DNA from: Acidithiobacillus sp.
GTDB lineage: Bacteria > Pseudomonadota > Gammaproteobacteria > Acidithiobacillales > Acidithiobacillaceae
DNA: 64,000 nt
Assembly: GCA_041676785.1 (NCBI GenBank)
Contig: JBAYRF010000004.1
Location: 69,584-133,583, forward strand
Direction of reading: 5' to 3'
In this document: positions 37,984 to 48,276 of the stretch, piece by piece
How positions within the stretch are numbered: position 1 is the first letter of the stretch
Layout of the letters: every line of letters starts with the position of its first letter
Notes under the pieces: generated by a model
Seen by the model: only the letters and a program-made list of their open reading frames with translations
What the model was told of the DNA's origin: nothing
Database searches by the model: none
Translations under genes and position numbers: made by a program

Positions 37984-40900
37984 TTATCGCGTCCGAAGGG
38001 ATTCATAAAGCCCCGCATTATTGAGCAGGATATCCTTCAGCCCGCCTTGAATAGCGACGGAGTTTAATGCTTGGGTACTCATCAGGGTGTGGGCATCAAG
38101 TGCGCCCATGATCGCGTTCAGCAGTTCGGTTTTGAGATCCGGCGAATTGGCAAACTGTTCTTTGGTGTTGTTCGTGGCTTGCTGCCGGAGGGTTTCAGAT
38201 TCCAGCAGCTTGCCCTTGATGACGCTGTTGACGTAGACGAGCTTGTCCTGATCGGTGAGTTCGCCATCAAACAGATCATTCAATTTCTCGATGATCTCGG
38301 CTATATAGGCTTTTTGTTTTTCCTGAACATGGCCACTGCCGCTATCCGTAATTGGGTAGAGTAGGGGCGTATCCCCTGTGTTGAGGGGCATGGAGATTTT
38401 GCCGAGGTGCTTTAGATGATGGTGGGTGAGCACGACTTTCGAGAGATCAATGCCTTCGCGTTCTCGACCAAATTCTAGGAGCGGGAGCAGGCGTTTGTAA
38501 AAAAGGGCGCGACTTTCAATGGCGGTATTGCCGTAATCGAAGATCTGCGACAGAAACGTGTACAGCCGTAGATAGGCGCCCATATCGCGCTTAAACAGGG
38601 TTAAGGTACTCAGCGCATCCTGTGCGCTTTCCACGCCCTGTCCGTCTGGTTGGTCTTGCGCGGTTTTGAGTGCGGCTTGGGCGGCTTTGTAGCGTTTCAT
38701 GACCCGGTCCTGTACCGGCTCTAAAGCGGCGATAAGCTCGCGCTGTTGGGCGTTGGGGTTGAGTTCAACGGCTACCACTCGTTCCACTTCAAAATCATCA
38801 TATAGACCGCTAGCGTCCAGCTTGGCGCGCAGGTCGAAGATGAGATTGGGGTCGGTAGTCGTCGCGAGTTCCGCTGTGGTGTAGTAGGTCTTAAAAGCGG
38901 CCAAGACGTCCTTTGCGTCATTCACAAAATCCAGCACATAGGTCGTGTCCTTGCCGGGATAGGCACGATTTAGACGCGATAGCGTTTGCACCGCCTGAAT
39001 CCCCGCCAATCGCTTATCCACATACATACCGCACAACAGGGGTTGATCGAAACCAGTCTGGAATTTATTGGCGACTAGCAAAATTTGGTATTCATCGCCC
39101 TTGAAGGCTTCGCGGATGTCGCGGCCTTTGAGGTTAGGGTTGAGGGTGGCACTGTGTTCGGTAAAGGCATCCGGCCCGGATTCCGGGTCGTTCACTTCGC
39201 CGGAAAAGGCGACCAGCGTGCCGATGTGATATCCATGTTCCCGGATGTATTTCTGAATCGCCCGTTGCCAGCGCACCGCTTCCAGCCGGCTGGCGACCAC
39301 CACCATGGCCTTGGCTTTACCCTGCAGCAATGGCGATACGAAAGTACGGAAGTGCTCAACCACGACTTCGACTTTCTGGGCGATGTTATAGGGATGCAAT
39401 CGTACCCAGCCCAGAATCGACTTCAGTGCGGTGCTACGATCCACTTGGTGTTCGTCGATCTCTTGGCCGTTGTGGGCGAGTTTGAAGGCTAGTTTGTAAG
39501 CGGTGTAGTTCTGCAGCACATCGAGAATGAATCCCTCCTCGATGGCCTGACGCATGGAGTACACATGAAAGGGTAGGGGTACATTATCCTCTGCCGGTTT
39601 GCGGGAGGGATCGGGACGCGTGCCGAACAATTCCATGGTTTTATTCTTAGGGGTGGCGGTATAGGCGACAAAGGTAATGCCGCCATCGTCTGCGCGGGTG
39701 GACATTTGTGCAGCGAGGATGTCTTCGGTGCTGATTTCGCCACCGTCGTTCAGTTCGGCCAACTCTTCGGGGTTCAATACGGCTTTGAGTTGGGTGGCGG
39801 CTTCGCCGGTTTGCGAGCTGTGGGCTTCATCGGCGATGACCGCAAAGTGTTTGCCTTGGGTGGCGGCCAGATTACGCACCGCTTCCAGCGCAAAGGGGAA
39901 GGTTTGAATGGTGCAGACCACAATTTTTTTGTCGCCCGATAGGGCCTCGGCGAGCTGGCTGCTTTTGCTGCCATCTTTGTGGGTGATGGTCGCCACCACC
40001 CCGCTGGTACGCTGAAAATCGAAGAGCGCTTCCTGAAGCTGGGCGTCAATCACATTGCGGTCAGAGACCACCAGAACGGTATCAAAGAGCTTCTGGTGTT
40101 GGGCGTCATGCAGTTCCGCCAGAAAATGCGCGGTCCAGGCAATGGAATTGGTTTTACCCGAACCCGCAGAATGCTGAATGAGATACTTACTACCCGGCCC
40201 ATCCTGCAGTACGGCCGTTTGCAGCTTGCGAGTCACATCCAACTGATGGAAACGCGGGAAGAGGATTTTATGAATGTGCTTTTTGGAATCCCGCTGCGCG
40301 ATCAAATAGCGACCAAGGATCTCTAACCAGCTTTCCCGCGCCCACACCTGTTCCCACAGGTACGCAGTACGGTGACCGCCGTTGAGATTGGGTGGATTCC
40401 CCGCCGCACCCTCATCACCCTGATTAAAGGGCAGGAACACCGTGGCCGGACCGGACAGCTTGGTTACCATCTGCACTTCGGTATTGCTGACCGCAAAATG
40501 CACTAAGGCGCCGTTGGGGAAAGACAGTAATGGCTCAGCGGCTTGGCCTTTGGGTTTGGGGTTACGGTCGAAGCGATATTGATCCACCGCATCGTGAATG
40601 CTTTGGGTAAAATCGGTTTTGAGTTCCGCTGTAGCAACGGGTATGCCGTTCAGGAACAAGCCCAGATCGATGCTGTTCTCGTTGTGCAACGAATAACGCA
40701 ACTGCCGTACTACGCGCAGCCGGTTGGTGGCATAGCGCGCCAGAATATCGGGATTGATTGCCAACGCCGGTTTGAACTGCGCGAGTAAAAGAGGGGCTTT
40801 CAGACCCAAAAGCTCAATGCCGTGGCGCAGAACATCCAGAGTACCGCGTTGATCGAGCTGATCGCGCAGCCGCGACAACAAGGTTTCACCGGCTTTAGTA

Positions 40901-41088
40901 CCGTGATTTTTCAGGAGGACTTCCCAAGCTTTCGGCTGCGTTTCTTGTATCCAAGCCAACACATCCGCCGGAAACAAGGCCCGTGCGCGGTCATATTGCG
41001 CGGCATCACCCTCGGCATAGAGCCAGTTGTGTGCGGCGAGGTGCTCGCAAATCTCGGTCTCAAAGCGGATTTCTTTGTGGATGCTCAT
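37984..41088 (-). CDS. hsdR: Type I restriction endonuclease subunit R
   Basis: Nuclease GIPVATAELK, HSAGSGKT, IADEAH, TATPK, FQTGFDQP, QTLSRLNR. Confidence 0.96.
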   Translation of the reverse strand: MSIHKEIRFETEICEHLAAHNWLYAEGDAAQYDRARALFPADVLAWIQETQPKAWEVLLKNHGTKAGETLLSRLRDQLDQRGTLDVLRHGIELLGLKAPLLLAQFKPALAINPDILARYATNRLRVVRQLRYSLHNENSIDLGLFLNGIPVATAELKTDFTQSIHDAVDQYRFDRNPKPKGQAAEPLLSFPNGALVHFAVSNTEVQMVTKLSGPATVFLPFNQGDEGAAGNPPNLNGGHRTAYLWEQVWARESWLEILGRYLIAQRDSKKHIHKILFPRFHQLDVTRKLQTAVLQDGPGSKYLIQHSAGSGKTNSIAWTAHFLAELHDAQHQKLFDTVLVVSDRNVIDAQLQEALFDFQRTSGVVATITHKDGSKSSQLAEALSGDKKIVVCTIQTFPFALEAVRNLAATQGKHFAVIADEAHSSQTGEAATQLKAVLNPEELAELNDGGEISTEDILAAQMSTRADDGGITFVAYTATPKNKTMELFGTRPDPSRKPAEDNVPLPFHVYSMRQAIEEGFILDVLQNYTAYKLAFKLAHNGQEIDEHQVDRSTALKSILGWVRLHPYNIAQKVEVVVEHFRTFVSPLLQGKAKAMVVVASRLEAVRWQRAIQKYIREHGYHIGTLVAFSGEVNDPESGPDAFTEHSATLNPNLKGRDIREAFKGDEYQILLVANKFQTGFDQPLLCGMYVDKRLAGIQAVQTLSRLNRAYPGKDTTYVLDFVNDAKDVLAAFKTYYTTAELATTTDPNLIFDLRAKLDASGLYDDFEVERVVAVELNPNAQQRELIAALEPVQDRVMKRYKAAQAALKTAQDQPDGQGVESAQDALSTLTLFKRDMGAYLRLYTFLSQIFDYGNTAIESRALFYKRLLPLLEFGREREGIDLSKVVLTHHHLKHLGKISMPLNTGDTPLLYPITDSGSGHVQEKQKAYIAEIIEKLNDLFDGELTDQDKLVYVNSVIKGKLLESETLRQQATNNTKEQFANSPDLKTELLNAIMGALDAHTLMSTQALNSVAIQGGLKDILLNNAGLYESLRTR

Positions 41089-41103: not shown

Positions 41104-41325
41104 TTAGTTCCGTCCGATCAATTGGGCGCCGTTGGCTTTGAGTTCTGCCAAAGAGATAAAGCGCGCTTGTTCGGCGACGATCTTTTTCCGGCGGGCCTGC
41201 ACTATCTCCTCATGCCAAAACGGCGAGGCTGGCTCATGCGCCGCATGGGTAAGCGAATCCCAAAGGGCTTCCATGGTCTGCAACTGTTCTTGCGTAGTCA
41301 TGTTTTCAATGTCGATGGGTTGCAT
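41104..41325 (-). CDS. Putative addiction-module antitoxin component (orphan)
   Basis: MTTQEQLQTMEALWDSL...SPFWHEEIVQAR pattern of the small addiction module family. Confidence 0.75.
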   Translation of the reverse strand: MQPIDIENMTTQEQLQTMEALWDSLTHAAHEPASPFWHEEIVQARRKKIVAEQARFISLAELKANGAQLIGRN

Positions 41326-41451: not shown

Positions 41452-42783
41452 TCACATCGCTGCCCGCACATCAATCTGGCCGGTGACAGCGGCGGAAATC
41501 AGCGCGGAGCGGCGTTCCTGAAAGAGGTCGATGGCACGTTGGGCTTCGGTGGTGAGAGTGTCGAGCTTAGCGGTTTCATCTTTGATGAATGCAATGATTT
41601 CATGCTGTTCACTGAGAGGAGGTATGGCAATTACGAATTCTCGAATTATTCCTTGACCGATCTTTTTCATGGAAGGGCTTGTACCTGTCGCATCCCGTTC
41701 AATTTGATACCGAACATTTGGGGAACGCAATGACAGCACAAGAAACTCACCCTCAACTCTTTCTGGTTTTGCACGAAAGCGATAGAGCAGGTCAGACAAA
41801 AGAAGACGGGGCCTTACCTCTGCTACGAATGTTGCCGATCCTACGAGTTCAAGCGTGTTGCCCCTGCTCATGAGAATGTCCCTAGGCTTGATCTCGTAGA
41901 TTGGCTGGGGTTCCAGTTCTAGAGGTAGTCTCTTTTGTTCATTGTAATCAAATTGTTCGCGATTTACACAGCCAACTTTGAGGACACCCCATTCGTCCTC
42001 TGCGGCTGGTTCACTCCAACATTGCGGTGACCATCCCTGCTCGATCTTGGTGATGGAATACTTCAACGGCTTAACCTCCCAATGCGCGGGCACATCGCCG
42101 AGCCACTCAATGCCGGAGGGTTTCATGGGGGCGGCGGGGTTTAGACCTTTGGTGACGGCGTGGGAAATGACGGCTTGGCGTTTTTCTTTGAGCAGTTCGA
42201 TCAACCGCCGCTGTTCTGTCACCAGTGCATCAATCTTCGCTGTCTCGCGGTCAAGAAAGGCGAGGATCGTCTTCTGCTCATCAATTGGAGGGACACCAAC
42301 ACCGATTGGCTTGAGAATGTCCCAGTTGATCGCACAACGGTGCTCGAGAATCCCATTCCCAAAAGATTGAGCGTAGGTCTGAAACGCACGGTTTTCAAAG
42401 ACACGGTATGCGAAGCGCGATTCAACCACGCAGCCCTGAGGTTTCAGCACGATGTAAACAGGGCTACATACGCCGTCATAATCTGACAACCCATAGGAAC
42501 CTATCCCGTAGTTCATGCTGTTGATGACAAAATCGCCCTGAGCAACCATTTTGCACTTGCTCAAATCTTCCGGCTTCTTATTCCCAACATCTCCCTTTTC
42601 CGCATATGGGATAATTCCTACGTTTGCCATCAACGAAAGGTAATCCTGACACGTTGCGCCCTCATTTTTTGCGGTTCGCTCATGGACAATTGCGCGGCAA
42701 GGGAGTACCTCCCAATGCGCCGGCACCTCGCCCAGCCATTTCACACCGCTGTCTTTGTATTCGGGATAACGCGGGAAACTCAT
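41452..42783 (-). CDS. hsdS: Type I R-M specificity subunit (two TRDs)
   Basis: YKDSGVKWLGEVPAHW, PPIDEQ, central ETAKIDAL...LLKEKRQA, PSGIEWLGDVPAHW, C-terminal SAAVTGQIDV. Confidence 0.96.
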   Translation of the reverse strand: MSFPRYPEYKDSGVKWLGEVPAHWEVLPCRAIVHERTAKNEGATCQDYLSLMANVGIIPYAEKGDVGNKKPEDLSKCKMVAQGDFVINSMNYGIGSYGLSDYDGVCSPVYIVLKPQGCVVESRFAYRVFENRAFQTYAQSFGNGILEHRCAINWDILKPIGVGVPPIDEQKTILAFLDRETAKIDALVTEQRRLIELLKEKRQAVISHAVTKGLNPAAPMKPSGIEWLGDVPAHWEVKPLKYSITKIEQGWSPQCWSEPAAEDEWGVLKVGCVNREQFDYNEQKRLPLELEPQPIYEIKPRDILMSRGNTLELVGSATFVAEVRPRLLLSDLLYRFRAKPERVEGEFLVLSLRSPNVRYQIERDATGTSPSMKKIGQGIIREFVIAIPPLSEQHEIIAFIKDETAKLDTLTTEAQRAIDLFQERRSALISAAVTGQIDVRAAM

Positions 42784-43394
42784 GCGGCTGCTCCTCGTGC
42801 GGCTTGCACGGCATGTTGCCAAAGGGCTTCGTGTTCCCACAACGGCGGGAAGCCCATGTGGATGCGGGAGATTTGCGGATTAGCGTCTAGCAGGCGAACA
42901 AGCCGTTCTGCCCAGTGACTTTCGGGATTAATTTGTTGCATGAGGGTTTCAATCACGACCAATTGCAGGTAGAGCCGACGCTGTGGGCTGAGCGTTGGGG
43001 TTGTCTCTGAGCGTGCCCCGCTGGGGATGGCGGTGGGTATCTGTGGCCAATGGCTGGGGGGTTTTTTAGGTAGTACGGGGTAACTACCAAACTCACGGTT
43101 CCATACGCGCATGTGGTGGGCGCACAGATTGCGTAAATCAGATAGGCTGCGGAACCAGGAGCTTAAAACGGTGTGATGCCCGCCGAAGTGCTGGCTAATA
43201 CGGTTGGTATCCGCCTTATTTCGTACATGAGCGAACAAGATGGAGATGACCTTAAACGTCAGTAATTCCATAGCCATCCATACGGGCGGCTGTTCGGGTG
43301 CTGCGGTGTATTTTTCACGGTAATGCGCTAAAAACGCTTCAACATCGCGCGCTTGGGCTTCTGGCGTGAGGGCGGGCTTAGCAAAAGCGGTCAT
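42780..43394 (-). pseudogene. Abi-family (AbiF/AbiD, Abi_2) HEPN protein with an apparent in-frame internal deletion
   Basis: N-terminal AKPALT..Q joined directly to AFLAHYREKY...PPVWMAMELLTF; HEPN motif LRNLCAHH..VWNR; only 204 aa. Confidence 0.75.
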
Positions 43395-43407
43395 TTACAT
43401 AAACCCC

Positions 43408-43462
43408 AAACGAAAAAACCCGCCAAAGTGTGCATCGTGGAGAGGCATGGCGGGTGTATTGC
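43408..43462 (-). ncRNA. Candidate abiF-type small RNA (hairpin + U-tract) upstream of the Abi gene
   Basis: Minus strand ACCCGCCA-tgcctctccacgatgcacactt-TGGCGGGT-TTTTT, ending about 18 nt before the Abi ATG. Confidence 0.65.
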
Positions 43463-43467
43463 CAAGT

Positions 43468-43496
43468 ATGCTAGTTCGATCCCTGCGCTGCGTCAA
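43468..43496 (-). promoter_or_regulatory. Internal sigma70 promoter driving the hairpin RNA and Abi gene
   Basis: TTGACG (43496-43491)-N17-TAGCAT (43473-43468). Confidence 0.65.
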
Positions 43497-43774
43497 CACG
43501 GGAACGGGCTTATTTTTTGGCGGTATTCCTGAAGTGAGCCGCATTTTTATCATGCCGATAGCCCGCCGATCATGCTTAAAATCCGGTCGGTGCATTGCTT
43601 GAGATCGCTTTTCTTTGAGCAGTTCGATCAACCGCTGCTGCTCGGCCTCCAGTGCATCAATCTTCAAAGTCTCGTGGTCAATTTGACGCTTAAATGGCTC
43701 GACGCTCCAATGCGCCGGTACCTCGCCCAGCCATTCCACGCCGCTGTCTTTGTATTCGGGATAACGCGGGAAAC

Positions 43775-44428
43775 TCATGCGTTCTCTCCGGTGTCGGCGG
43801 CTTCGCCCGCATCTTGCAGGTAAAACTCATGTAACTTGCTTTGCAGCAGCGCTTTGTCGGGCAACTGCGTGGCGTAGGCGGCAATCAGCGCGGGTGAGGC
43901 GGTGCGGCTCAGGGCGTATTCGACCACCTCGTCGTCTTTGCTGGCGCACAGCAGTACGCCAATGGCTGGGTTTTCATGCGGCTTTTTGGCATCGCGGTCC
44001 AAGGCCTCCAGATAAAACGACAACTTGCCGAGGTATTCGGGTTCAAAGCGGCCGACCTTGAGTTCAAAAGCCACCAAGCAGTTCAGACCCCGGTGGAAGA
44101 ACAATAGATCCAGCGCAAAATCACGCCCGCCCACTTGCACCGGAAACTCGGAGCCGACAAAACAGAAGTCGCGACCCAGTTCAATCAAAAAGGCTTTGAG
44201 TTTGGTCAACAGGCCCTGGTGCAGGTCGCGTTCGCTGTGGCCTTCGGGCAGTCCGAGAAATTCGATCATGTAGGCGTCTTTGAAGATTTGCAGTGCCTGC
44301 GGGTGGGTTTGTCTCACCACTGGTGAGACTTTTACCGGACTGAGCACTACGCGCTCAAACAAAGCGGCTTTGAGCTGACGCTCCAGCGCAAAACTGTCTG
44401 CGGATGCTGGGTCGGGCAGCGTGTTCAT
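43775..44428 (-). pseudogene. DUF1016 / YhcG PD-(D/E)xK nuclease with most of the N-terminal domain deleted in frame
   Basis: 14 N-terminal residues joined to LERQ...FER...KDAY..EFL; GRDFCFVG, DLLFFH, FELK, GKLSFYL, ENPAIGVLLC. Confidence 0.8.
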
Positions 44429-46179
44429 GCGGTGAGCCCTTGGATCATGCGCAGGATGTTGTCGGTCACGCCTTTCAGTTCGGCATCAATCTCTGCCAAT
44501 GGGCGCGGCGGTTTGAACACGTAAAAATGGCGGTTGAACGGAATCTCGTAGCCGATTTTGGTTTTGTCGGGGTCGATCCAGGCATCGGGCGCGTGGGGCA
44601 GCACTTCGCGCGCAAAGTAGGTTGCTACGTTTTCACTGAGCGGCACGTTTTCGGTGTCCCGCAGGGATGTATCTGCCACAGGTTTGCCTTTGGCTTTGCC
44701 CTTGGTGGCCAGCACGATGTTGCCGGCTTCATCGCGCTGCGGGCGCTCGATGGTGATGCTGCGGTAGCCAAAATCCTCATTCTTGAAAATGCGGCTGATG
44801 GGGGTGTTGATGCCGTCCACGTCCTGACTGACTTCTGCAAACTGTCCAAACAGCCGGGTGATTTCGTCGATATGTTCTGGACTGAGTTCGCGGCGTTTGC
44901 TGCCGAGGCTTTTGCGCATTTTTTGCCAAAAGCGACTGGCATCAATCAATTGTACTTTGCCTTTGCGCGCGGCGGCTTTGCGATTGCTGACAATCCAGAC
45001 ATAAGTACTGATACCGGTGTTATAAAACATATCCGTGGGCAGGCTGATGATGGCCTCGACCAGATCATTTTCCAGCATGTAGCGGCGAATTTCGCTTTCA
45101 CCCGAACCCGCGCCGCCAGTGAACAGCGGCGAACCGTTGAGCACGATACCAAAGCGGCTGCCGCCATCCACGGCGGGGCGCATTTTGGCTACAAGGTGCA
45201 ATAAAAACAGCAGCGAGCCATCGCTCACGCGCGGCAGGCCGGGGCCAAAGCGGCCATTAAAACCCATTTGTTCGGCTTCTTTGCGAATCTCTTTTTCGAT
45301 TTTCTTCCATTCCACGCCAAAGGGCGGATTGGAGAGCATGTAGTCAAAATGTTTGCCGTATAAACCGTCGGCGGATAGGGTATTGCCGAAGATGATGTTG
45401 GCGATGTCTTGCCCTTTGATGAGCATGTCGGCCTTGCAGATGGCGTAGGATTCGGGGTTGAGTTCCTGCCCGTACATCACCAAGCGCGCATCGGGGTTGA
45501 GGCTGGTGAGATGCGCATCGGCCACGCTCAACATGCCGCCGGTGCCCGCTGTGGGGTCATAGAGCGAGCGCACCACGCCGGGTTTGGTGAGTGCTTCGTC
45601 ATCTTCAATAAACAGCAGATTCACCATCAGCCGGATGACTTCGCGCGGGGTGAAGTGTTCGCCTGCGGTTTCATTCGAGAGTTCGGCAAACTTACGGATC
45701 AGTTCCTCAAATACGCTGCCCATTTCTTCATTGCTGACGGCATCGGGGTGCAGATCAATATGGGCGAATTTTTCGGTGACGAGATACAGCAATCCCGCCT
45801 TGGCGAGCTTGTCGATTTGGGTGTGAAACTCAAAACGCTCGAAAATATCCCGCACTTCCGGCGAGAACGCTTGCAAGTAAGCCCGCAGGTTTTCGCCAAT
45901 GTGATCCTGATCGCCCATGAGCTTTTTTAAATCCAACGGCGAGGTATTAAAAAAGAGCTGTTGGGACGCGCGCCGCAAGAAGGGCTCGGGGTTGATGCCC
46001 GCCTTCTCACGCTGCGCCAATTCGGCCAGCACGGCAGGCTTGGTGGCTTCCAACACGCAATCTAATCGGCGCAACACCGTAAAAGACAGAATGACTTTGC
46101 CATACTCCGATTGCTTGTAATCACCACGCAGCAGATCTGCTACGGACCAGATAAAAGGGGATAGATTCGCGTTGGACAT
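44425..46179 (-). CDS. hsdM: Type I R-M methyltransferase subunit
   Basis: [33 protein letters not shown] (m6A), MFYNTGI. Confidence 0.97.
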
Positions 46180-46307
46180 GGGAGGGGTTGTTACCCATTC
46201 AAGTGAGAGATGATTGACCAAATACCTGCGTTAGATAGTCACCCAGTATCTTTGACGTAAGTCCTTTAGGCAACTCCAAGGGAGAATGCTTGCGGTCGAT
46301 AGACTGG

Positions 46308-46478: not shown

Positions 46479-47759
46479 TCAGGAGCGTGCTCTCGCTAAA
46501 TCTGACCAGCAAGTGGTATAGCTAGGCGATTTGTTGCCGCGTTTCATGGACCAGTCGCGTTGTCCCTGTAATCCAGCGACGCCCGGTTGCAAGGCGTTAT
46601 GCCCAAAGCGGGTATGGATAGCATCCAGAGTTTTCATCAGCTGATCCGAGCGTATATCGAGCGCTTCGGCGGCAAAGAGATCCCTTTGCTGCTGATGGAC
46701 GGAACGGATCTCCGTCAGATGTACGCCGGCCTTGGCGTAGGCGAACTGGGGACGATAGATGTGGCGAAGTCCGGATAGCGCGGCCTTTATCAATATGCGC
46801 GTATCCTGACTAGGTATAGCGAGCGCGACCGTTTGTGAGGCGTGGTATTGTGGTTTGTCAGGCCGGAAGGGGGTGGTGCGAATATCTATGCGTACTGCGC
46901 CGCATATGGATTCTTGCTGGCGCAATTTTTGGGTAGCTCGAACTGTATAGACGTTGATGGCTTCTGCTAAATCTTCTATCCGGGTGACGGGCCGGCCAAA
47001 AGAACGGGAGGATTGAATCTCTTGTTTGGTGGGTGCGATTTCGGTGAGTGCGATGCAGGATTCTCCCTGCAATTCTCGTATAGTCCGCGCCATCAGGATG
47101 TTGAAGTGCTGACGCATCCAAACAGGATGCGTTTGCTGAAGATCCCAAACGCTTTGTATACCCTGCGAAGCCAGCTTTTCTGTCAGCCTTCGACCCACAC
47201 CCCAGACTTCCGACACCGGAAGATTTTGCAATAAGGTTTGCCGAGTTTGCGTGTTCAGGGATTCCCAATTGCAGACGCCCTGATACTCGGGATATTTTTT
47301 GGCAACATGATTGGCGAGCTTGGCAAGGGTCTTGGTTGCGGCAATACCTACCCCAACTGGTAATCCCAACCATTGCCGGATCTTGAGTCGGGCGGCTTGT
47401 CCTATGCGGGATAAATGCGCTGGTGCAAAACCGCGTAAATCCAGAAAGCATTCGTCGATACTGTAGACTTCTTGAATGGGGCTGAAAGTCGAAAGTATGC
47501 GCATCATGCGATTACTCATATCCGCATACAGTGCATAGTTGCTGGACATGGCAATAATGCCTTCCTGCTGAGCCTGTTTTTGTAATTGAAACCACGGGGT
47601 GCCTATAGCAATACCCAAGGCCTTTACTTCTGCCGAGCGCGCGACGACGCAGCCGTCATTATTGGAAAGCACCACCACGGGCCGCCCTTCCAGATCTGGA
47701 CGAAATACTCGCTCGCAGGACACATAAAAATTGTTGGCATCAATGAGGGCAATAGCCAT
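46479..47759 (-). CDS. umuC: Y-family DNA polymerase V catalytic subunit
   Basis: [31 protein letters not shown]-terminal DUF4113 WSMKR..SPSYTT. Confidence 0.95.
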
Positions 47760-47766
47760 GTGAGCC

Positions 47767-48276
47767 TCAGACGCGATGTAATACGCGGGTGACTACGCCC
47801 CAGATGCAAAGCTCTTGTCCTTCATTCAGCACAATATCCGGAAACTCCGGATTCTCGGCGACGAGATGGACGACCGTGTCGATTTGACGTAAACGTTTAA
47901 CGGTTAATTCCCCATTGATGGCCGCTACTACGATTTTGCCATCTACAGGAGTAATCGCCCGATCCACAATGATTTCATCGCCATCAAAAATTCCGGCGTC
48001 GCGCATGGACCAGCCAGTAACGCGCAAAATAAAAGTGGCTTCCTTGTGCTGGATCAGGTGTGTATTCAGATCAATCTGGTTTTCGATATAGTCATCCGCA
48101 GGCGATGGAAACCCAGCAGCAATGCGAGATACCATGAGCGGCAGTGTTCTCTTGCCATGAAGGCGGCCCACGGGCCGTGGTGATGAAGCCATCATGTTCC
48201 AGCGATCCAGTGCGCTTCCAAAGAGATCAAGATCGACAATCGTTGATGTTTTTTGAAGGTTTTTGCGAATGTGCAT
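47767..48276 (-). CDS. umuD: UmuD (S24 autopeptidase)
   Basis: [25 protein letters not shown]; start codon uncertain. Confidence 0.93.

What the first reader, a model, noticed from the sequence alone, without database searches (positions are those of the whole stretch)
43395..43496. Hidden promoter, small hairpin RNA and U-tract in front of a HEPN Abi gene: an abiF / type III toxin-antitoxin-like module inside the R-M operon
Seen: on the minus strand, TTGACG-N17-TAGCAT is followed about 10 nt later by ACCCGCCA-(22 nt)-TGGCGGGT and TTTTT, and the Abi ATG (43394) starts about 18 nt further on. The downstream protein carries the HEPN RNase motif RNLCAHH. The module is masked by the read-through tail of the hsdS stub, so ORF-based annotation would miss it. 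Established: Abi_2/AbiF genes are preceded by a conserved abiF RNA motif, and AbiF HEPN nucleases have been described as RNA-neutralised toxins related to Cas13 ancestors. Promoter-antitoxin RNA-terminator-toxin is the type III TA layout. Inference: an abundant ~50-nt RNA is made and leaky read-through supplies the toxin, giving RNA-gated abortive infection nested in a type I R-M operon.
Basis: partly seen in the sequence, partly recalled or inferred. Interest (0 to 1): 0.8.

Follow-up and report, generated by a model that had tools for sequence, protein, structure and literature searches.

The report
AbiF antitoxin RNA inside restriction operon
The hairpin is a genuine copy of the known abiF antitoxin RNA, sitting in front of an AbiF suicide-RNase gene wedged into a type I restriction operon. 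In this genome the RNase gene has lost a third of its length, and the open frame that "hides" the RNA turns out to be a conserved translated bridge linking the neighbouring genes.

Summary
The promoter-like site, hairpin, U-run, Shine-Dalgarno sequence and ATG lie where stated. The hairpin matches Rfam abiF (RF03085) over its whole length at 47.3 bits (cut-off 37).

The cassette of promoter, hairpin, U6, SD and ATG is conserved in register upstream of about 115 homologous Abi_2 genes. All stem cells pair, and 5 of 9 pairs show compensatory changes. Full-length homologues match the solved PbAbiF-ncRNA complex (8VZ6). This is therefore a member of the published AbiF RNA-antitoxin/HEPN-toxin system, and embedding of Abi2 genes in R-M operons is also published.

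1. The window's abi gene is a young in-frame deletion allele. It lacks 121 codons, including the long central helix and 28 of the 76 family-invariant residues. A full-length allele still circulates. The toxin here is probably disarmed.

2. The "masking" ORF is not an accident. In 53 of 57 loci with hsdM upstream, an ORF starts on hsdM's stop codon ([A/G]TGA). It reads through the internal promoter, hairpin and U-run, and stops on the abi ATG (ATGA). Nineteen of 22 spacing classes are in frame (P = 4e-7). Loci with other upstream genes show random frames.

I infer a translational relay, hsdM to bridge to abi to hsdS, that would also suppress termination on the operon mRNA.

The parts
44425..46221 (-). 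hsdM (598 aa), type I R-M methylase. Its TGA stop overlaps the ATG of the next ORF (GCATGA).
   Evidence: Pfam N6_Mtase and HsdM_N; junction sequence.
43775..44428 (-). YhcG/DUF1016-type PDDEXK nuclease gene (217 aa). The C-terminal domain is present and the N-terminal domain appears deleted in frame. It is coupled by ATGA at both ends.
   Evidence: Pfam YhcG_C at residues 47-199 only; comparison with L046; junctions.
43395..43778 (-). hsdS stub, acting as the bridging ORF (127 aa). It holds the hsdS N-terminal conserved region, then the central conserved region, then reads through the abiF promoter, hairpin, U-run and SD. It ends in TAA immediately before the abi ATG.
   Evidence: Translation; direct repeats with the intact hsdS, 75 nt at 96% and 76 nt at 87%; conserved counterpart in 53 of 57 hsdM-linked loci.
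43468..43496 (-). Internal sigma-70-type promoter, TTGACG-N17-TAGCAT. The -10 hexamer ends 13 nt before the hairpin, so the predicted start of transcription is near 43461.
   Evidence: Consensus scan; -35 and -10 at the same fixed distance from the hairpin in most of 51 loci. The start site is inferred, not mapped.
43418..43454 (-). abiF RNA motif. It has a 6-bp outer stem, a bulged A, a 3-bp inner stem, a conserved loop and a conserved 3' bulge CACUUU.
   Evidence: Rfam RF03085 at 47.3 bits, E 4e-7; fold; all cells paired and 5 of 9 pairs with compensatory changes; model R1 hit at 76.8 bits.
43413..43418 (-). U-run directly after the stem, giving a terminator-like 3' end for the roughly 50-nt RNA.
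   Evidence: Sequence; T5-T6 invariant in 51 aligned loci. Termination is inferred.
43404..43407 (-). Shine-Dalgarno GGGG for abi, 9 nt before the ATG.
   Evidence: Sequence; GGGG or GGAGG at the same place in homologous loci.
42780..43394 (-). abi deletion allele (204 aa). It is an AbiF/Abi_2 HEPN protein lacking residues ~11-131. The deletion junction is at 43359-43364 and RNLCAHH at 43113-43133. Its TGA stop overlaps the hsdS ATG.
   Evidence: Pfam Abi_2 profile positions 107-184 only; alignment with 325-aa homologues; DNA junction; structure models; junction.
41452..42783 (-). Intact hsdS (443 aa from ATG 42783) with two target-recognition domains.
   Evidence: Pfam Methylase_S, 2 stretches; translation.
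41104..41325 (-). Small gene of the 'Unstab_antitox' family (73 aa) between hsdS and hsdR.
   Evidence: Pfam PF09720; sequence.
37984..41088 (-). hsdR (1034 aa), the restriction subunit.
   Evidence: Pfam HSDR_N, ResIII/SWI2_SNF2 and T1R_D3-like.

Best explanation
The feature is the promoter, antitoxin RNA and built-in terminator of an AbiF module. AbiF is a HEPN RNase toxin neutralised by the abiF RNA, a type III-like toxin-antitoxin pair. The module is inserted between hsdM and hsdS of a type I restriction-modification operon.

Shown:
- The RNA is a full-length Rfam abiF motif.
- The cassette is conserved in register in about 115 related loci, with covarying stems.
- Full-length orthologues are homologues of the solved PbAbiF-ncRNA complex.
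- The window's toxin gene is a recent in-frame deletion allele that lacks 121 codons, including the long central helix.
- The whole stretch from the upstream stop codon to the abi start codon is one ORF. That arrangement is conserved, in frame, in 53 of 57 loci with hsdM upstream.

Inferred:
- The internal promoter makes a short RNA of about 50 nt. It starts about 7 nt before the hairpin and ends in the U-run, and it serves as antitoxin.
- On the long operon mRNA, ribosomes re-initiating at the hsdM (here yhcG) stop translate across the hairpin. This melts it, suppresses termination, and hands ribosomes on to abi and then hsdS through ATGA overlaps.
- In this genome the toxin is probably disarmed. 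The deletion stayed in frame because a frameshift would break the relay that feeds hsdS.
For: - RNA identity: Rfam hit at 47.3 bits against a cut-off of 37. It is the only copy in the genome.
- Conservation: hairpin, U6 and spacing to the ATG are conserved in 50 of 58 genome loci and most of 80 metagenome loci.
- Structure: 100% of stem cells paired, 5 of 9 pairs with compensatory changes, 0 of 500 shuffles as good.
- Promoter: -35 and -10 at a fixed distance from the hairpin.
- Protein family: Abi_2 Pfam hit and RNLCAHH. Full-length homologue against 8VZ6 gives E 2e-50 by sequence and TM 0.81/0.88 by fold.
- Published function of the family: PMC12373285; PMC12737573, which cites Cell 2025;188:1925.
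- Operon context: hsdM-abi-hsdS-hsdR order in at least 30 of 58 genome loci. The abi stop overlaps the next ATG in 68 of 113 loci.
- Deletion. A full-length allele sits in the same 90% cluster with an identical hairpin.
- Structural loss: 28 of the 76 family-invariant residues and helices H11-H134 are removed. Model confidence falls from 90 to 71 and is below 50 beside the catalytic motif.
- Bridge ORF: 35 of 39 sequence clusters against 4.8 expected. 53 of 57 loci; 19 of 22 spacing classes in frame, P = 4e-7; control loci 11/10/9 across frames. An unannotated example occurs on plasmid CP113227.1.
Against: - No transcript data. The two metatranscriptome runs gave only contigs of conserved pieces from other organisms. 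The transcription start, the 3' end, termination and antitoxin activity are therefore all inferred.
- The hairpin has a 22-nt interior, unlike textbook terminators, and the consensus terminator scan did not flag it.
- The short Abi protein keeps its Rx4H motif. Pairwise dN/dS among the deletion copies is 0.1-0.35, so some function cannot be excluded. The polymorphisms are mosaic with the full-length allele and may predate the deletion.
- Frame f0 is the only frame that the promoter hexamers leave free of stops, and abi's second codon always starts with A. Part of the bridge's openness therefore follows from conserved sequence. The frame statistic and the shuffles address this but do not prove translation.
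- The primary AbiF paper (Cell 2025) could not be read here, so I cannot exclude that it already describes the operon wiring.
Confidence: 0.78

Rival explanations
1. The module is fully active here. The 204-aa protein is still a toxic or otherwise functional HEPN protein that the RNA neutralises, so the locus still gives RNA-gated abortive infection.
For: The Rx4H motif is intact. The ORF is intact in five independent metagenome copies. dN/dS is 0.1-0.35, and 10 or fewer nonsynonymous changes out of 20 has P = 0.008 under neutrality. The hairpin is identical in all copies.
Against: The deletion removes 121 of 325 residues, including the 41-residue central helix and 28 family-invariant positions. 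Model confidence collapses around the catalytic motif. The polymorphisms are shared mosaically with the full-length allele, so the low dN/dS may reflect selection before the deletion. Other lineages show plain decay of abi: frameshifts in L035, L041, L099 and L135, and a different in-frame deletion in L053. An intact ORF is also what the translational relay alone would demand.
Confidence: 0.2
2. The bridging ORF has no function of its own. It is a historical leftover of the hsdS 5' end into which the cassette was inserted, kept open by chance and by the conserved promoter and hairpin sequence.
For: In the window and in L032 the ORF begins with a recognisable hsdS N-terminus. The promoter hexamers and hairpin carry no stop in frame f0. 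Stop-free probability from shuffles is 0.07-0.76 per locus. GC-rich genomes have long chance ORFs.
Against: The spacing between the hsdM stop and the hairpin takes 22 different values, 19 of them in frame (P = 4e-7). Loci with unrelated upstream genes show frames 11/10/9. Bridges occur in 35 of 39 diverged sequence clusters against 4.8 expected, and the three out-of-frame clusters still bridge in another frame. Tandem extra motif copies are absorbed without breaking the frame.
Confidence: 0.15
3. The hairpin is only a cis-acting transcription attenuator or terminator inside the operon and has no trans-acting antitoxin role.
For: A GC-rich stem is followed by U6. In C. difficile the abiF-motif RNA reduces downstream expression 17-fold at the transcriptional level (PMC12373285, section 9).
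Against: Loop and bulge nucleotides are invariant across classes of Proteobacteria, which a plain terminator does not need. The hairpin has its own conserved promoter. The homologous RNA binds and neutralises the toxin in trans in C. difficile (PMC12373285) and is seen bound in PDB 8VZ6.
Confidence: 0.05
4. The conserved element is the peptide encoded across the hairpin (..NTPAMPLxDAHFGGFF..), not the RNA.
For: The peptide's C-terminal part is conserved in all f0 bridges, and the most variable loop triplet coincides with one codon.
Against: Compensatory stem changes keep pairing, not amino acids. Three clusters read the hairpin in another frame. Loci without any bridge keep the same hairpin. 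The hairpin matches the Rfam covariance model and the RNA bound in the solved complex.
Confidence: 0.02

Closest known systems
AbiF/AbiFr RNA toxin-antitoxin: PbAbiF-ncRNA, PDB 8VZ6 (Zilberzwige-Tal et al., Cell 2025;188:1925, as cited in PMC12373285 and PMC12737573)
   Same: Same protein family: the full-length orthologue scores E 2e-50 and TM 0.81/0.88 against 8VZ6. Same Rx4H HEPN motif. Same cis-encoded hairpin RNA with a conserved single-stranded bulge, lying upstream of the toxin gene.
   Different: Here the toxin gene has lost residues ~11-131. The cassette sits inside a translationally coupled hsdM-hsdS operon and is spanned by a bridging ORF. Binding, RNA processing and RNase activity were not tested here.
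RCd22/AbiFCd of the C. difficile phi027 prophage (Saunier et al. 2025, PMC12373285)
   Same: Promoter, then an abiF-motif RNA, then a terminator, an RBS and abiF. In that system the short RNA is abundant, read-through gives the toxin mRNA, and the RNA acts both in cis (termination) and in trans (neutralisation).
   Different: RCd22 is about 100-130 nt with two abiF motifs and a separate terminator hairpin, and it lies in a prophage lysis module. Here there is one motif whose own stem is followed directly by U6, giving a predicted RNA of about 50 nt, inside an R-M operon.
abiF RNA motif, Rfam RF03085 (cited to Weinberg et al. 2017 by PMC12373285)
   Same: Full-length match above the gathering score, the same two-stem structure, and the same position 5' of an Abi_2 gene.
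   Different: None at the level of the motif. The proteobacterial clade adds a fixed promoter 13 nt upstream and a U6 directly downstream.
Classical type III TA systems (ToxIN, AbiQ/antiQ, CptIN, TenpIN)
   Same: A protein endoribonuclease toxin neutralised by a cis-encoded RNA, with a terminator between RNA and toxin gene setting the ratio, and a role in abortive infection.
   Different: Those antitoxins are tandem repeats cut by the toxin into units, and the toxins are not HEPN proteins. Here there is a single hairpin and a HEPN toxin.
HEPN genes embedded in R-M operons: Abi2/AbiD/AbiF per Anantharaman et al. 2013 (PMC3710099), and PrrC in the EcoprrI hsd locus
   Same: A HEPN RNase gene rides inside a type I hsd operon as a second line of defence behind restriction.
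   Different: PrrC carries an ATPase domain and is held in check by the R-M proteins. Here the partner is an RNA, and no such domain is present. The bridging ORF across the RNA was not found in the papers I could read.

Membership tests
abiF RNA motif (Rfam RF03085) | Full-length match to the covariance model at or above the gathering score (37 bits) | tested here: met
   47.3 bits, E 4.2e-7, model positions 1-37 of 37, at 43454..43418 on the minus strand; same hit in the whole-genome search.
abiF RNA motif (Rfam RF03085) | Two-stem hairpin (6 bp, bulged A, 3 bp) supported by covariation | tested here: met
   The minimum-energy fold contains both stems. Across 48 distinct sequences, 100% of cells pair and 5 of 9 pairs have compensatory changes; slid controls give none.
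abiF RNA motif (Rfam RF03085) | Lies just 5' of an Abi_2/AbiF gene on the same strand | tested here: met
   The hairpin ends 23 nt before the ATG of the Abi_2 ORF. The same holds in about 115 related loci.
AbiF/Abi_2 HEPN toxin (Pfam PF07751; PbAbiF 8VZ6) | Pfam Abi_2 match above the curated cut-off | tested here: met
   78.2 bits against 25.6, but only profile positions 107-184 of 184.
AbiF/Abi_2 HEPN toxin (Pfam PF07751; PbAbiF 8VZ6) | HEPN Rx4-6H catalytic motif | tested here: met
   RNLCAHH at residues 88-94; R, N, C, A and H are invariant in the family alignment.
AbiF/Abi_2 HEPN toxin (Pfam PF07751; PbAbiF 8VZ6) | Complete fold of about 300-330 residues, including the N-terminal helices and the long central helix | tested here: not met
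   The protein is 204 aa and residues ~11-131 are absent. The lost part includes H11-20, H28-37, H40-45, H66-106 and most of H123-134 of the full-length model. The short model has pLDDT 71.
AbiF/Abi_2 HEPN toxin (Pfam PF07751; PbAbiF 8VZ6) | Homology to the solved AbiF-ncRNA complex | tested here: met
   Full-length orthologue P0006 against 8vz6_A: E 2e-50 over residues 4-314. Its model against 8vz6_A: TM 0.81/0.88, E 6e-18.
AbiF/Abi_2 HEPN toxin (Pfam PF07751; PbAbiF 8VZ6) | RNase activity and toxicity | not testable with these tools
   Needs expression and assay. Shown for relatives in PMC12373285 and, per PMC12737573, in Cell 2025;188:1925.
Type III toxin-antitoxin systems | Layout of promoter, antitoxin RNA, terminator, toxin gene | tested here: met
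   Sequence; positional conservation of -35, -10, hairpin, U6, SD and ATG. Function of each element is inferred.
Type III toxin-antitoxin systems | RNA binds and neutralises the protein toxin | not testable with these tools
   Known for homologues (PMC12373285; 8VZ6). Not tested for this locus.
Type III toxin-antitoxin systems | Antitoxin made of tandem repeats processed by the toxin (ToxIN type) | tested here: not met
   The window has a single motif copy. Some relatives have 2-3 tandem copies.
Type I restriction-modification operon | HsdM, HsdS and HsdR genes on one strand | tested here: met
   Pfam domains of all three; ATGA coupling at three junctions.
PrrC/RloC-type R-M-guarded anticodon nuclease | N-terminal ABC-type ATPase domain fused to the HEPN nuclease | tested here: not met
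   Only Abi_2 is found in the protein. Homologues are 325 aa and match 8VZ6 over their whole length.

The most novel reading that the evidence does not exclude
In type I restriction operons the AbiF cassette is wired as a translational relay. A short ORF starts on the hsdM stop codon and runs through the antitoxin RNA's own promoter, hairpin and terminator. It ends on the toxin's start codon, and the toxin's stop codon in turn overlaps hsdS.

Ribosomes coming from hsdM would melt the hairpin on the operon mRNA. That would prevent termination and keep the RNA from folding as antitoxin in cis, so toxin and HsdS synthesis would depend on ongoing hsdM translation. Only the internal promoter would make the free antitoxin RNA.

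This would couple an RNA-antitoxin system to the expression state of a restriction system. It would also explain why passenger genes in this window decayed only by in-frame deletions.
Probability: 0.5. Interest if true: 0.6.

Novelty: new variant of a known kind. Interest (0 to 1): 0.45.

Why it matters
The RNA and the toxin family are already described, so the locus itself adds another example, and a damaged one. What could matter is the conserved ORF across the antitoxin RNA in restriction operons.

- It shows how a cassette that carries its own terminator can live inside an operon without silencing the genes behind it.
- It predicts that toxin and antitoxin come from two different transcripts.
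- It gives a concrete test, a stop codon in the bridge, of how Abi and R-M layers are co-regulated.
- It matters for annotation. The bridge, the RNA and the promoter are unannotated in a complete plasmid record (CP113227.1), and ORF callers label the bridge as a hypothetical protein that hides the RNA.

Tried and rejected
- Transcript evidence. Twenty-four runs hold parts of the stretch, two of them RNA. Laying X10 and X18 gave only short contigs of the conserved hairpin and of hsdS repeats, mostly from other organisms. They say nothing about a discrete small RNA.
- Terminator and promoter consensus scans alone. The promoter is not above chance, and the hairpin was not flagged because its interior exceeds 8 nt. 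Support comes from comparative data instead.
- dN/dS as a test of function of the short protein. Values are low (0.1-0.35). The variable sites are shared mosaically with the full-length allele, so I did not use this as proof.
- Branch length. The long stem branch of the deletion pair (0.29) is shared by the full-length allele P0128, so it is not decay.
- A lab-friendly E. coli example. There is no match to the hairpin region in 5,426 complete E. coli genomes.
- Plain terminator of the upstream gene, and PrrC-like membership. Both rejected; see the rivals and the membership test.
- A regex search missed hairpins with G-U or U-A stem variants in L001, L003, L012, L015 and L028. Rfam and my own covariance model recovered them.

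Full report
**Observation**

On the minus strand the window reads as follows:
- TTGACG at 43496-43491, then a 17-nt spacer, then TAGCAT at 43473-43468.
- 12 nt further on, ACCCGCCA at 43455-43448, then 22 nt, then TGGCGGGT at 43425-43418.
- A run of six T at 43418-43413, GGGG at 43407-43404, and ATG at 43394.

The ORF 43778..43395 covers all of this and ends in TAA directly before that ATG. The downstream ORF (43394..42780, 204 aa) carries RNLCAHH at residues 88-94.

The promoter hexamers are not above chance on their own. The scan found 2 sites in 5.6 kb against 3.3 expected from shuffles. The hairpin folds at -17.5 kcal/mol, z = -2.9.

**What the hairpin is**

A scan of 42500-44500 against all Rfam families gives one real hit. 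It is abiF (RF03085) at 43454..43418 on the minus strand: 47.3 bits against a gathering score of 37, E 4e-7, all 37 model positions. It is the only copy in the 2.4-Mb genome, a MAG assembled from a landfill metagenome. The motif is present in only 3 of 23 genomes of the same genus, as expected for a mobile cassette.

**Comparative support**

The 204-aa protein has 197 relatives, nearly all 325 aa and carrying Abi_2. I fetched 58 loci from species genomes and 80 from metagenomes.
- A regex, Rfam and a covariance model built here find the hairpin about 60 nt upstream of the abi start in roughly 115 of these loci.
- Over 48 distinct sequences, every stem cell forms a standard pair.
- Five of nine pairs show compensatory changes. 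No shuffle and no slid register comes close.
- The loop GCCUCU, the 3' bulge CAC(U/A), the U5-6 run and the flanking AACACA are invariant or nearly so.
- A -35 TTGACn and a -10 TAnnAT sit at a fixed distance, with the -10 ending 13 nt before the stem.

A GGGG/GGAGG Shine-Dalgarno sequence and the ATG follow at a fixed distance.

**What the protein is**

The full-length homologue P0006 matches the chain of PDB 8VZ6 ('PbAbiF dimer bound to ncRNA') with E 2e-50 over its whole length. Its AlphaFold model (pLDDT 90) matches 8VZ6_A with TM 0.81/0.88, and no other PDB entry is significant.

The literature I could read says the following:
- Abi_2/AbiF proteins are toxic HEPN RNases. In C. difficile the abiF-motif RNA RCd22 is made from its own promoter, mostly terminates before abiF, and neutralises the toxin by direct binding in cis and in trans (PMC12373285).
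- The review PMC12737573 summarises the Cell 2025 paper (188:1925): AbiF is treated as a type III toxin and an ancestor of Cas13, with each monomer binding one ncRNA whose single-stranded bulge blocks the active site.
- Anantharaman et al. 2013 (PMC3710099, Table 1) already list Abi2/AbiF/AbiD as 'embedded in R-M operons'.

The kind of system and its R-M context are therefore known.

**Context in the window**

All genes are on the minus strand:
- hsdM, 46221..44425.
- A YhcG-type PDDEXK gene, 44428..43775.
- An hsdS stub, 43778..43395.
- The abiF RNA.
- abi, 43394..42780.
- Intact hsdS, 42783..41452.
- A 73-aa 'Unstab_antitox' gene, 41325..41104.
- hsdR, 41088..37984.

The stub is the hsdS N-terminal conserved region (75 nt, 96% identical to the start of the intact hsdS) joined to the central conserved region (76 nt, 87%). 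It then reads on into the abiF cassette. The junctions hsdM/yhcG, yhcG/stub and abi/hsdS are all GCATGA overlaps.

In at least 30 of the 58 genome loci the order is hsdM, abiF RNA, abi, hsdS, hsdR. The abi stop overlaps the next ATG in 68 of 113 complete loci.

**The toxin gene here is a deletion allele**

Aligned with 325-aa homologues, the window protein keeps MTAFAKPAL and then resumes at residue ~132.
- At the DNA level 363 nt are missing between ...CTCACGCCAGA and AGCCCAAGCG..., with 2-4 nt of microhomology.
- The same allele occurs in four other assemblies (L059, L148-L150) and in two further runs, with at most 3.5% nucleotide divergence.
- A full-length allele (P0128/L147) with an identical hairpin belongs to the same 90% cluster. 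The deletion is therefore recent and polymorphic.
- It removes helices H11-20, H28-37, H40-45, the 41-residue H66-106 and most of H123-134.
- It removes 28 of the 76 family-invariant residues.
- With the same alignment depth, the short protein's model drops to pLDDT 71 and falls below 50 right after the catalytic motif.

I conclude the toxin is probably disarmed, at about 65-70%.

Against this, the ORF is intact in all copies and dN/dS is 0.1-0.35. However, the variable sites are shared mosaically with the full-length allele, so they may predate the deletion.

Decay of abi is common in the sample. L035, L041, L099 and L135 are frameshifted. L053 has a different in-frame deletion, residues 45-204, between FRLS and FRSLS.

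**The 'masking' ORF is conserved**

In the frame that reads the hairpin as CCC GCC ATG CCT CTC (f0), the sequence stays open far upstream in most loci. It stops at a TGA that overlaps the abi ATG.

Among loci with hsdM upstream:
- hsdM always ends in TGA preceded by A, G or T (ATGA 40, GTGA 16, TTGA 1).
- That overlapping start codon lies in f0 in 54 of 57 loci.
- The ORF is complete from there to the abi start in 53 of 57.
- The distance from the hsdM stop to the hairpin takes 22 different values (-41 to -260 nt). Nineteen of them are in frame (binomial P = 4e-7).
- After clustering the upstream sequences at 80% identity, 35 of 39 clusters have the f0 bridge. Only 4.8 are expected if the frame were random and the non-conserved positions shuffled.
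- The three out-of-frame clusters (L004, L006, L064) still bridge in another frame. Only L039 has no bridge.

Where the upstream gene is not hsdM, the frames are 11/10/9 and only 5 of 30 loci have a bridge.

In the window the bridge is the hsdS stub. It uses the same frame (..NTPAMPLHDAHFGGFF..) and is coupled upstream to yhcG and through it to hsdM.

A complete, annotated plasmid (CP113227.1) shows the same 53-codon bridge in a 154-nt gap that its annotation leaves empty. The gap lies between 'DNA methyltransferase' and 'Abi family protein'.

Caveats:
- f0 is the only frame the promoter hexamers leave free of stops.
- abi's second codon always begins with A.
- Part of the openness therefore comes with the conserved sequence.
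- Translation itself is not shown.

**How it most likely works**

Shown: the identity of the RNA and protein family, the conserved cassette, the operon position, the deletion, and the conserved bridge.

Inferred:
1. The internal promoter makes an RNA of about 50 nt that folds, terminates at the U-run and serves as antitoxin, as in the characterised relatives.
2. On the operon transcript, ribosomes that finish hsdM (here yhcG) re-initiate at the overlapping start. They translate across the hairpin, keep it from forming and so suppress termination. They terminate on the abi start, which has its own SD, and abi's stop hands them to hsdS.
3. Toxin and HsdS would thus come mainly from the translated operon mRNA, and free antitoxin from the short transcript.
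4. In this genome the toxin has been defused. The deletion, like those in yhcG and the stub noted by another first-stage entry (e1-5259125), stayed in frame because a frameshift would cut the relay that feeds hsdS.

**Verdict**

It is a member of a known system in a known kind of context, and in this copy the toxin is probably inactive. The conserved bridging ORF is the part I could not find described. It is statistically solid as a sequence feature and untested as a mechanism.

Noticed in passing
window 43775-44428 (-): The YhcG/DUF1016-type PDDEXK gene keeps about 14 N-terminal codons and then jumps to the LERQL... C-terminal nuclease domain. This looks like an in-frame loss of the N-terminal domain. 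The same 217-aa form occurs in L150. Together with the hsdS stub and abi, that makes three consecutive in-frame-deleted passengers with ATGA coupling preserved.
   Followed up: partly
window 42712-42786 / 43707-43781 and 42179-42254 / 43606-43681: Direct repeats between the hsdS stub and the intact hsdS, 75 nt at 96% and 76 nt at 87%. Recombination at the first pair would excise the stub, the RNA and abi and leave hsdS fused to the yhcG stop.
   Followed up: partly
window 41104-41325 (-): A 73-aa gene of the 'Unstab_antitox' (putative addiction module component) family sits alone between hsdS and hsdR. No obvious toxin partner ORF lies beside it.
   Followed up: no
L003 2599-2649; L010 5333-5489; L014 5001-5060; L015 5451-5510; L075 2333-2489; G009 and G010 (same genus): Some relatives carry two or three tandem, more diverged abiF-like hairpins upstream of the main one, all inside the bridging ORF. 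This recalls the two-motif RCd22 of C. difficile.
   Followed up: partly
L023 9024-9084, L025 8989-9049, L024 10280-10340: Halomonas-group operons carry a second abiF hairpin and a second, distant Abi_2 paralogue (about 36% identity) between hsdS and hsdR. That gives two AbiF modules in one type I operon.
   Followed up: no
L053 5959-6459: An independent in-frame deletion allele of abi (166 aa). Residues 1-44 are joined to the DLRN catalytic helix between the FRLS and FRSLS repeats. Frameshifted abi genes occur in L035, L041, L099 and L135.
   Followed up: partly
L147 (Logan contig of SRR12245802) 1-1050: A full-length 325-aa abi allele is about 97-98% identical to the window's allele in the shared part and has an identical hairpin. 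It co-exists in public metagenomes with the 204-aa deletion allele.
   Followed up: yes
L059 vs window 43464-43471: Five of the 38 differences between the window and L059 cluster in and just after the -10 hexamer (TAGCATACTTGG vs TAATATCCACGG). The hairpin, U-run and SD are identical in both.
   Followed up: no
L151 (plasmid CP113227.1) 4343-4504: On a VIM-carrying mobilizable plasmid from a pig faecal isolate, the GenBank annotation leaves the 154-nt stretch between the methyltransferase and the Abi gene empty. That stretch holds the promoter, the abiF RNA and a 53-codon bridging ORF.
   Followed up: yes
window 46479-48276 (-): A umuC-like gene (IMS family, 426 aa) and an adjacent 169-aa ORF lie directly upstream of the R-M operon.
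   Followed up: no
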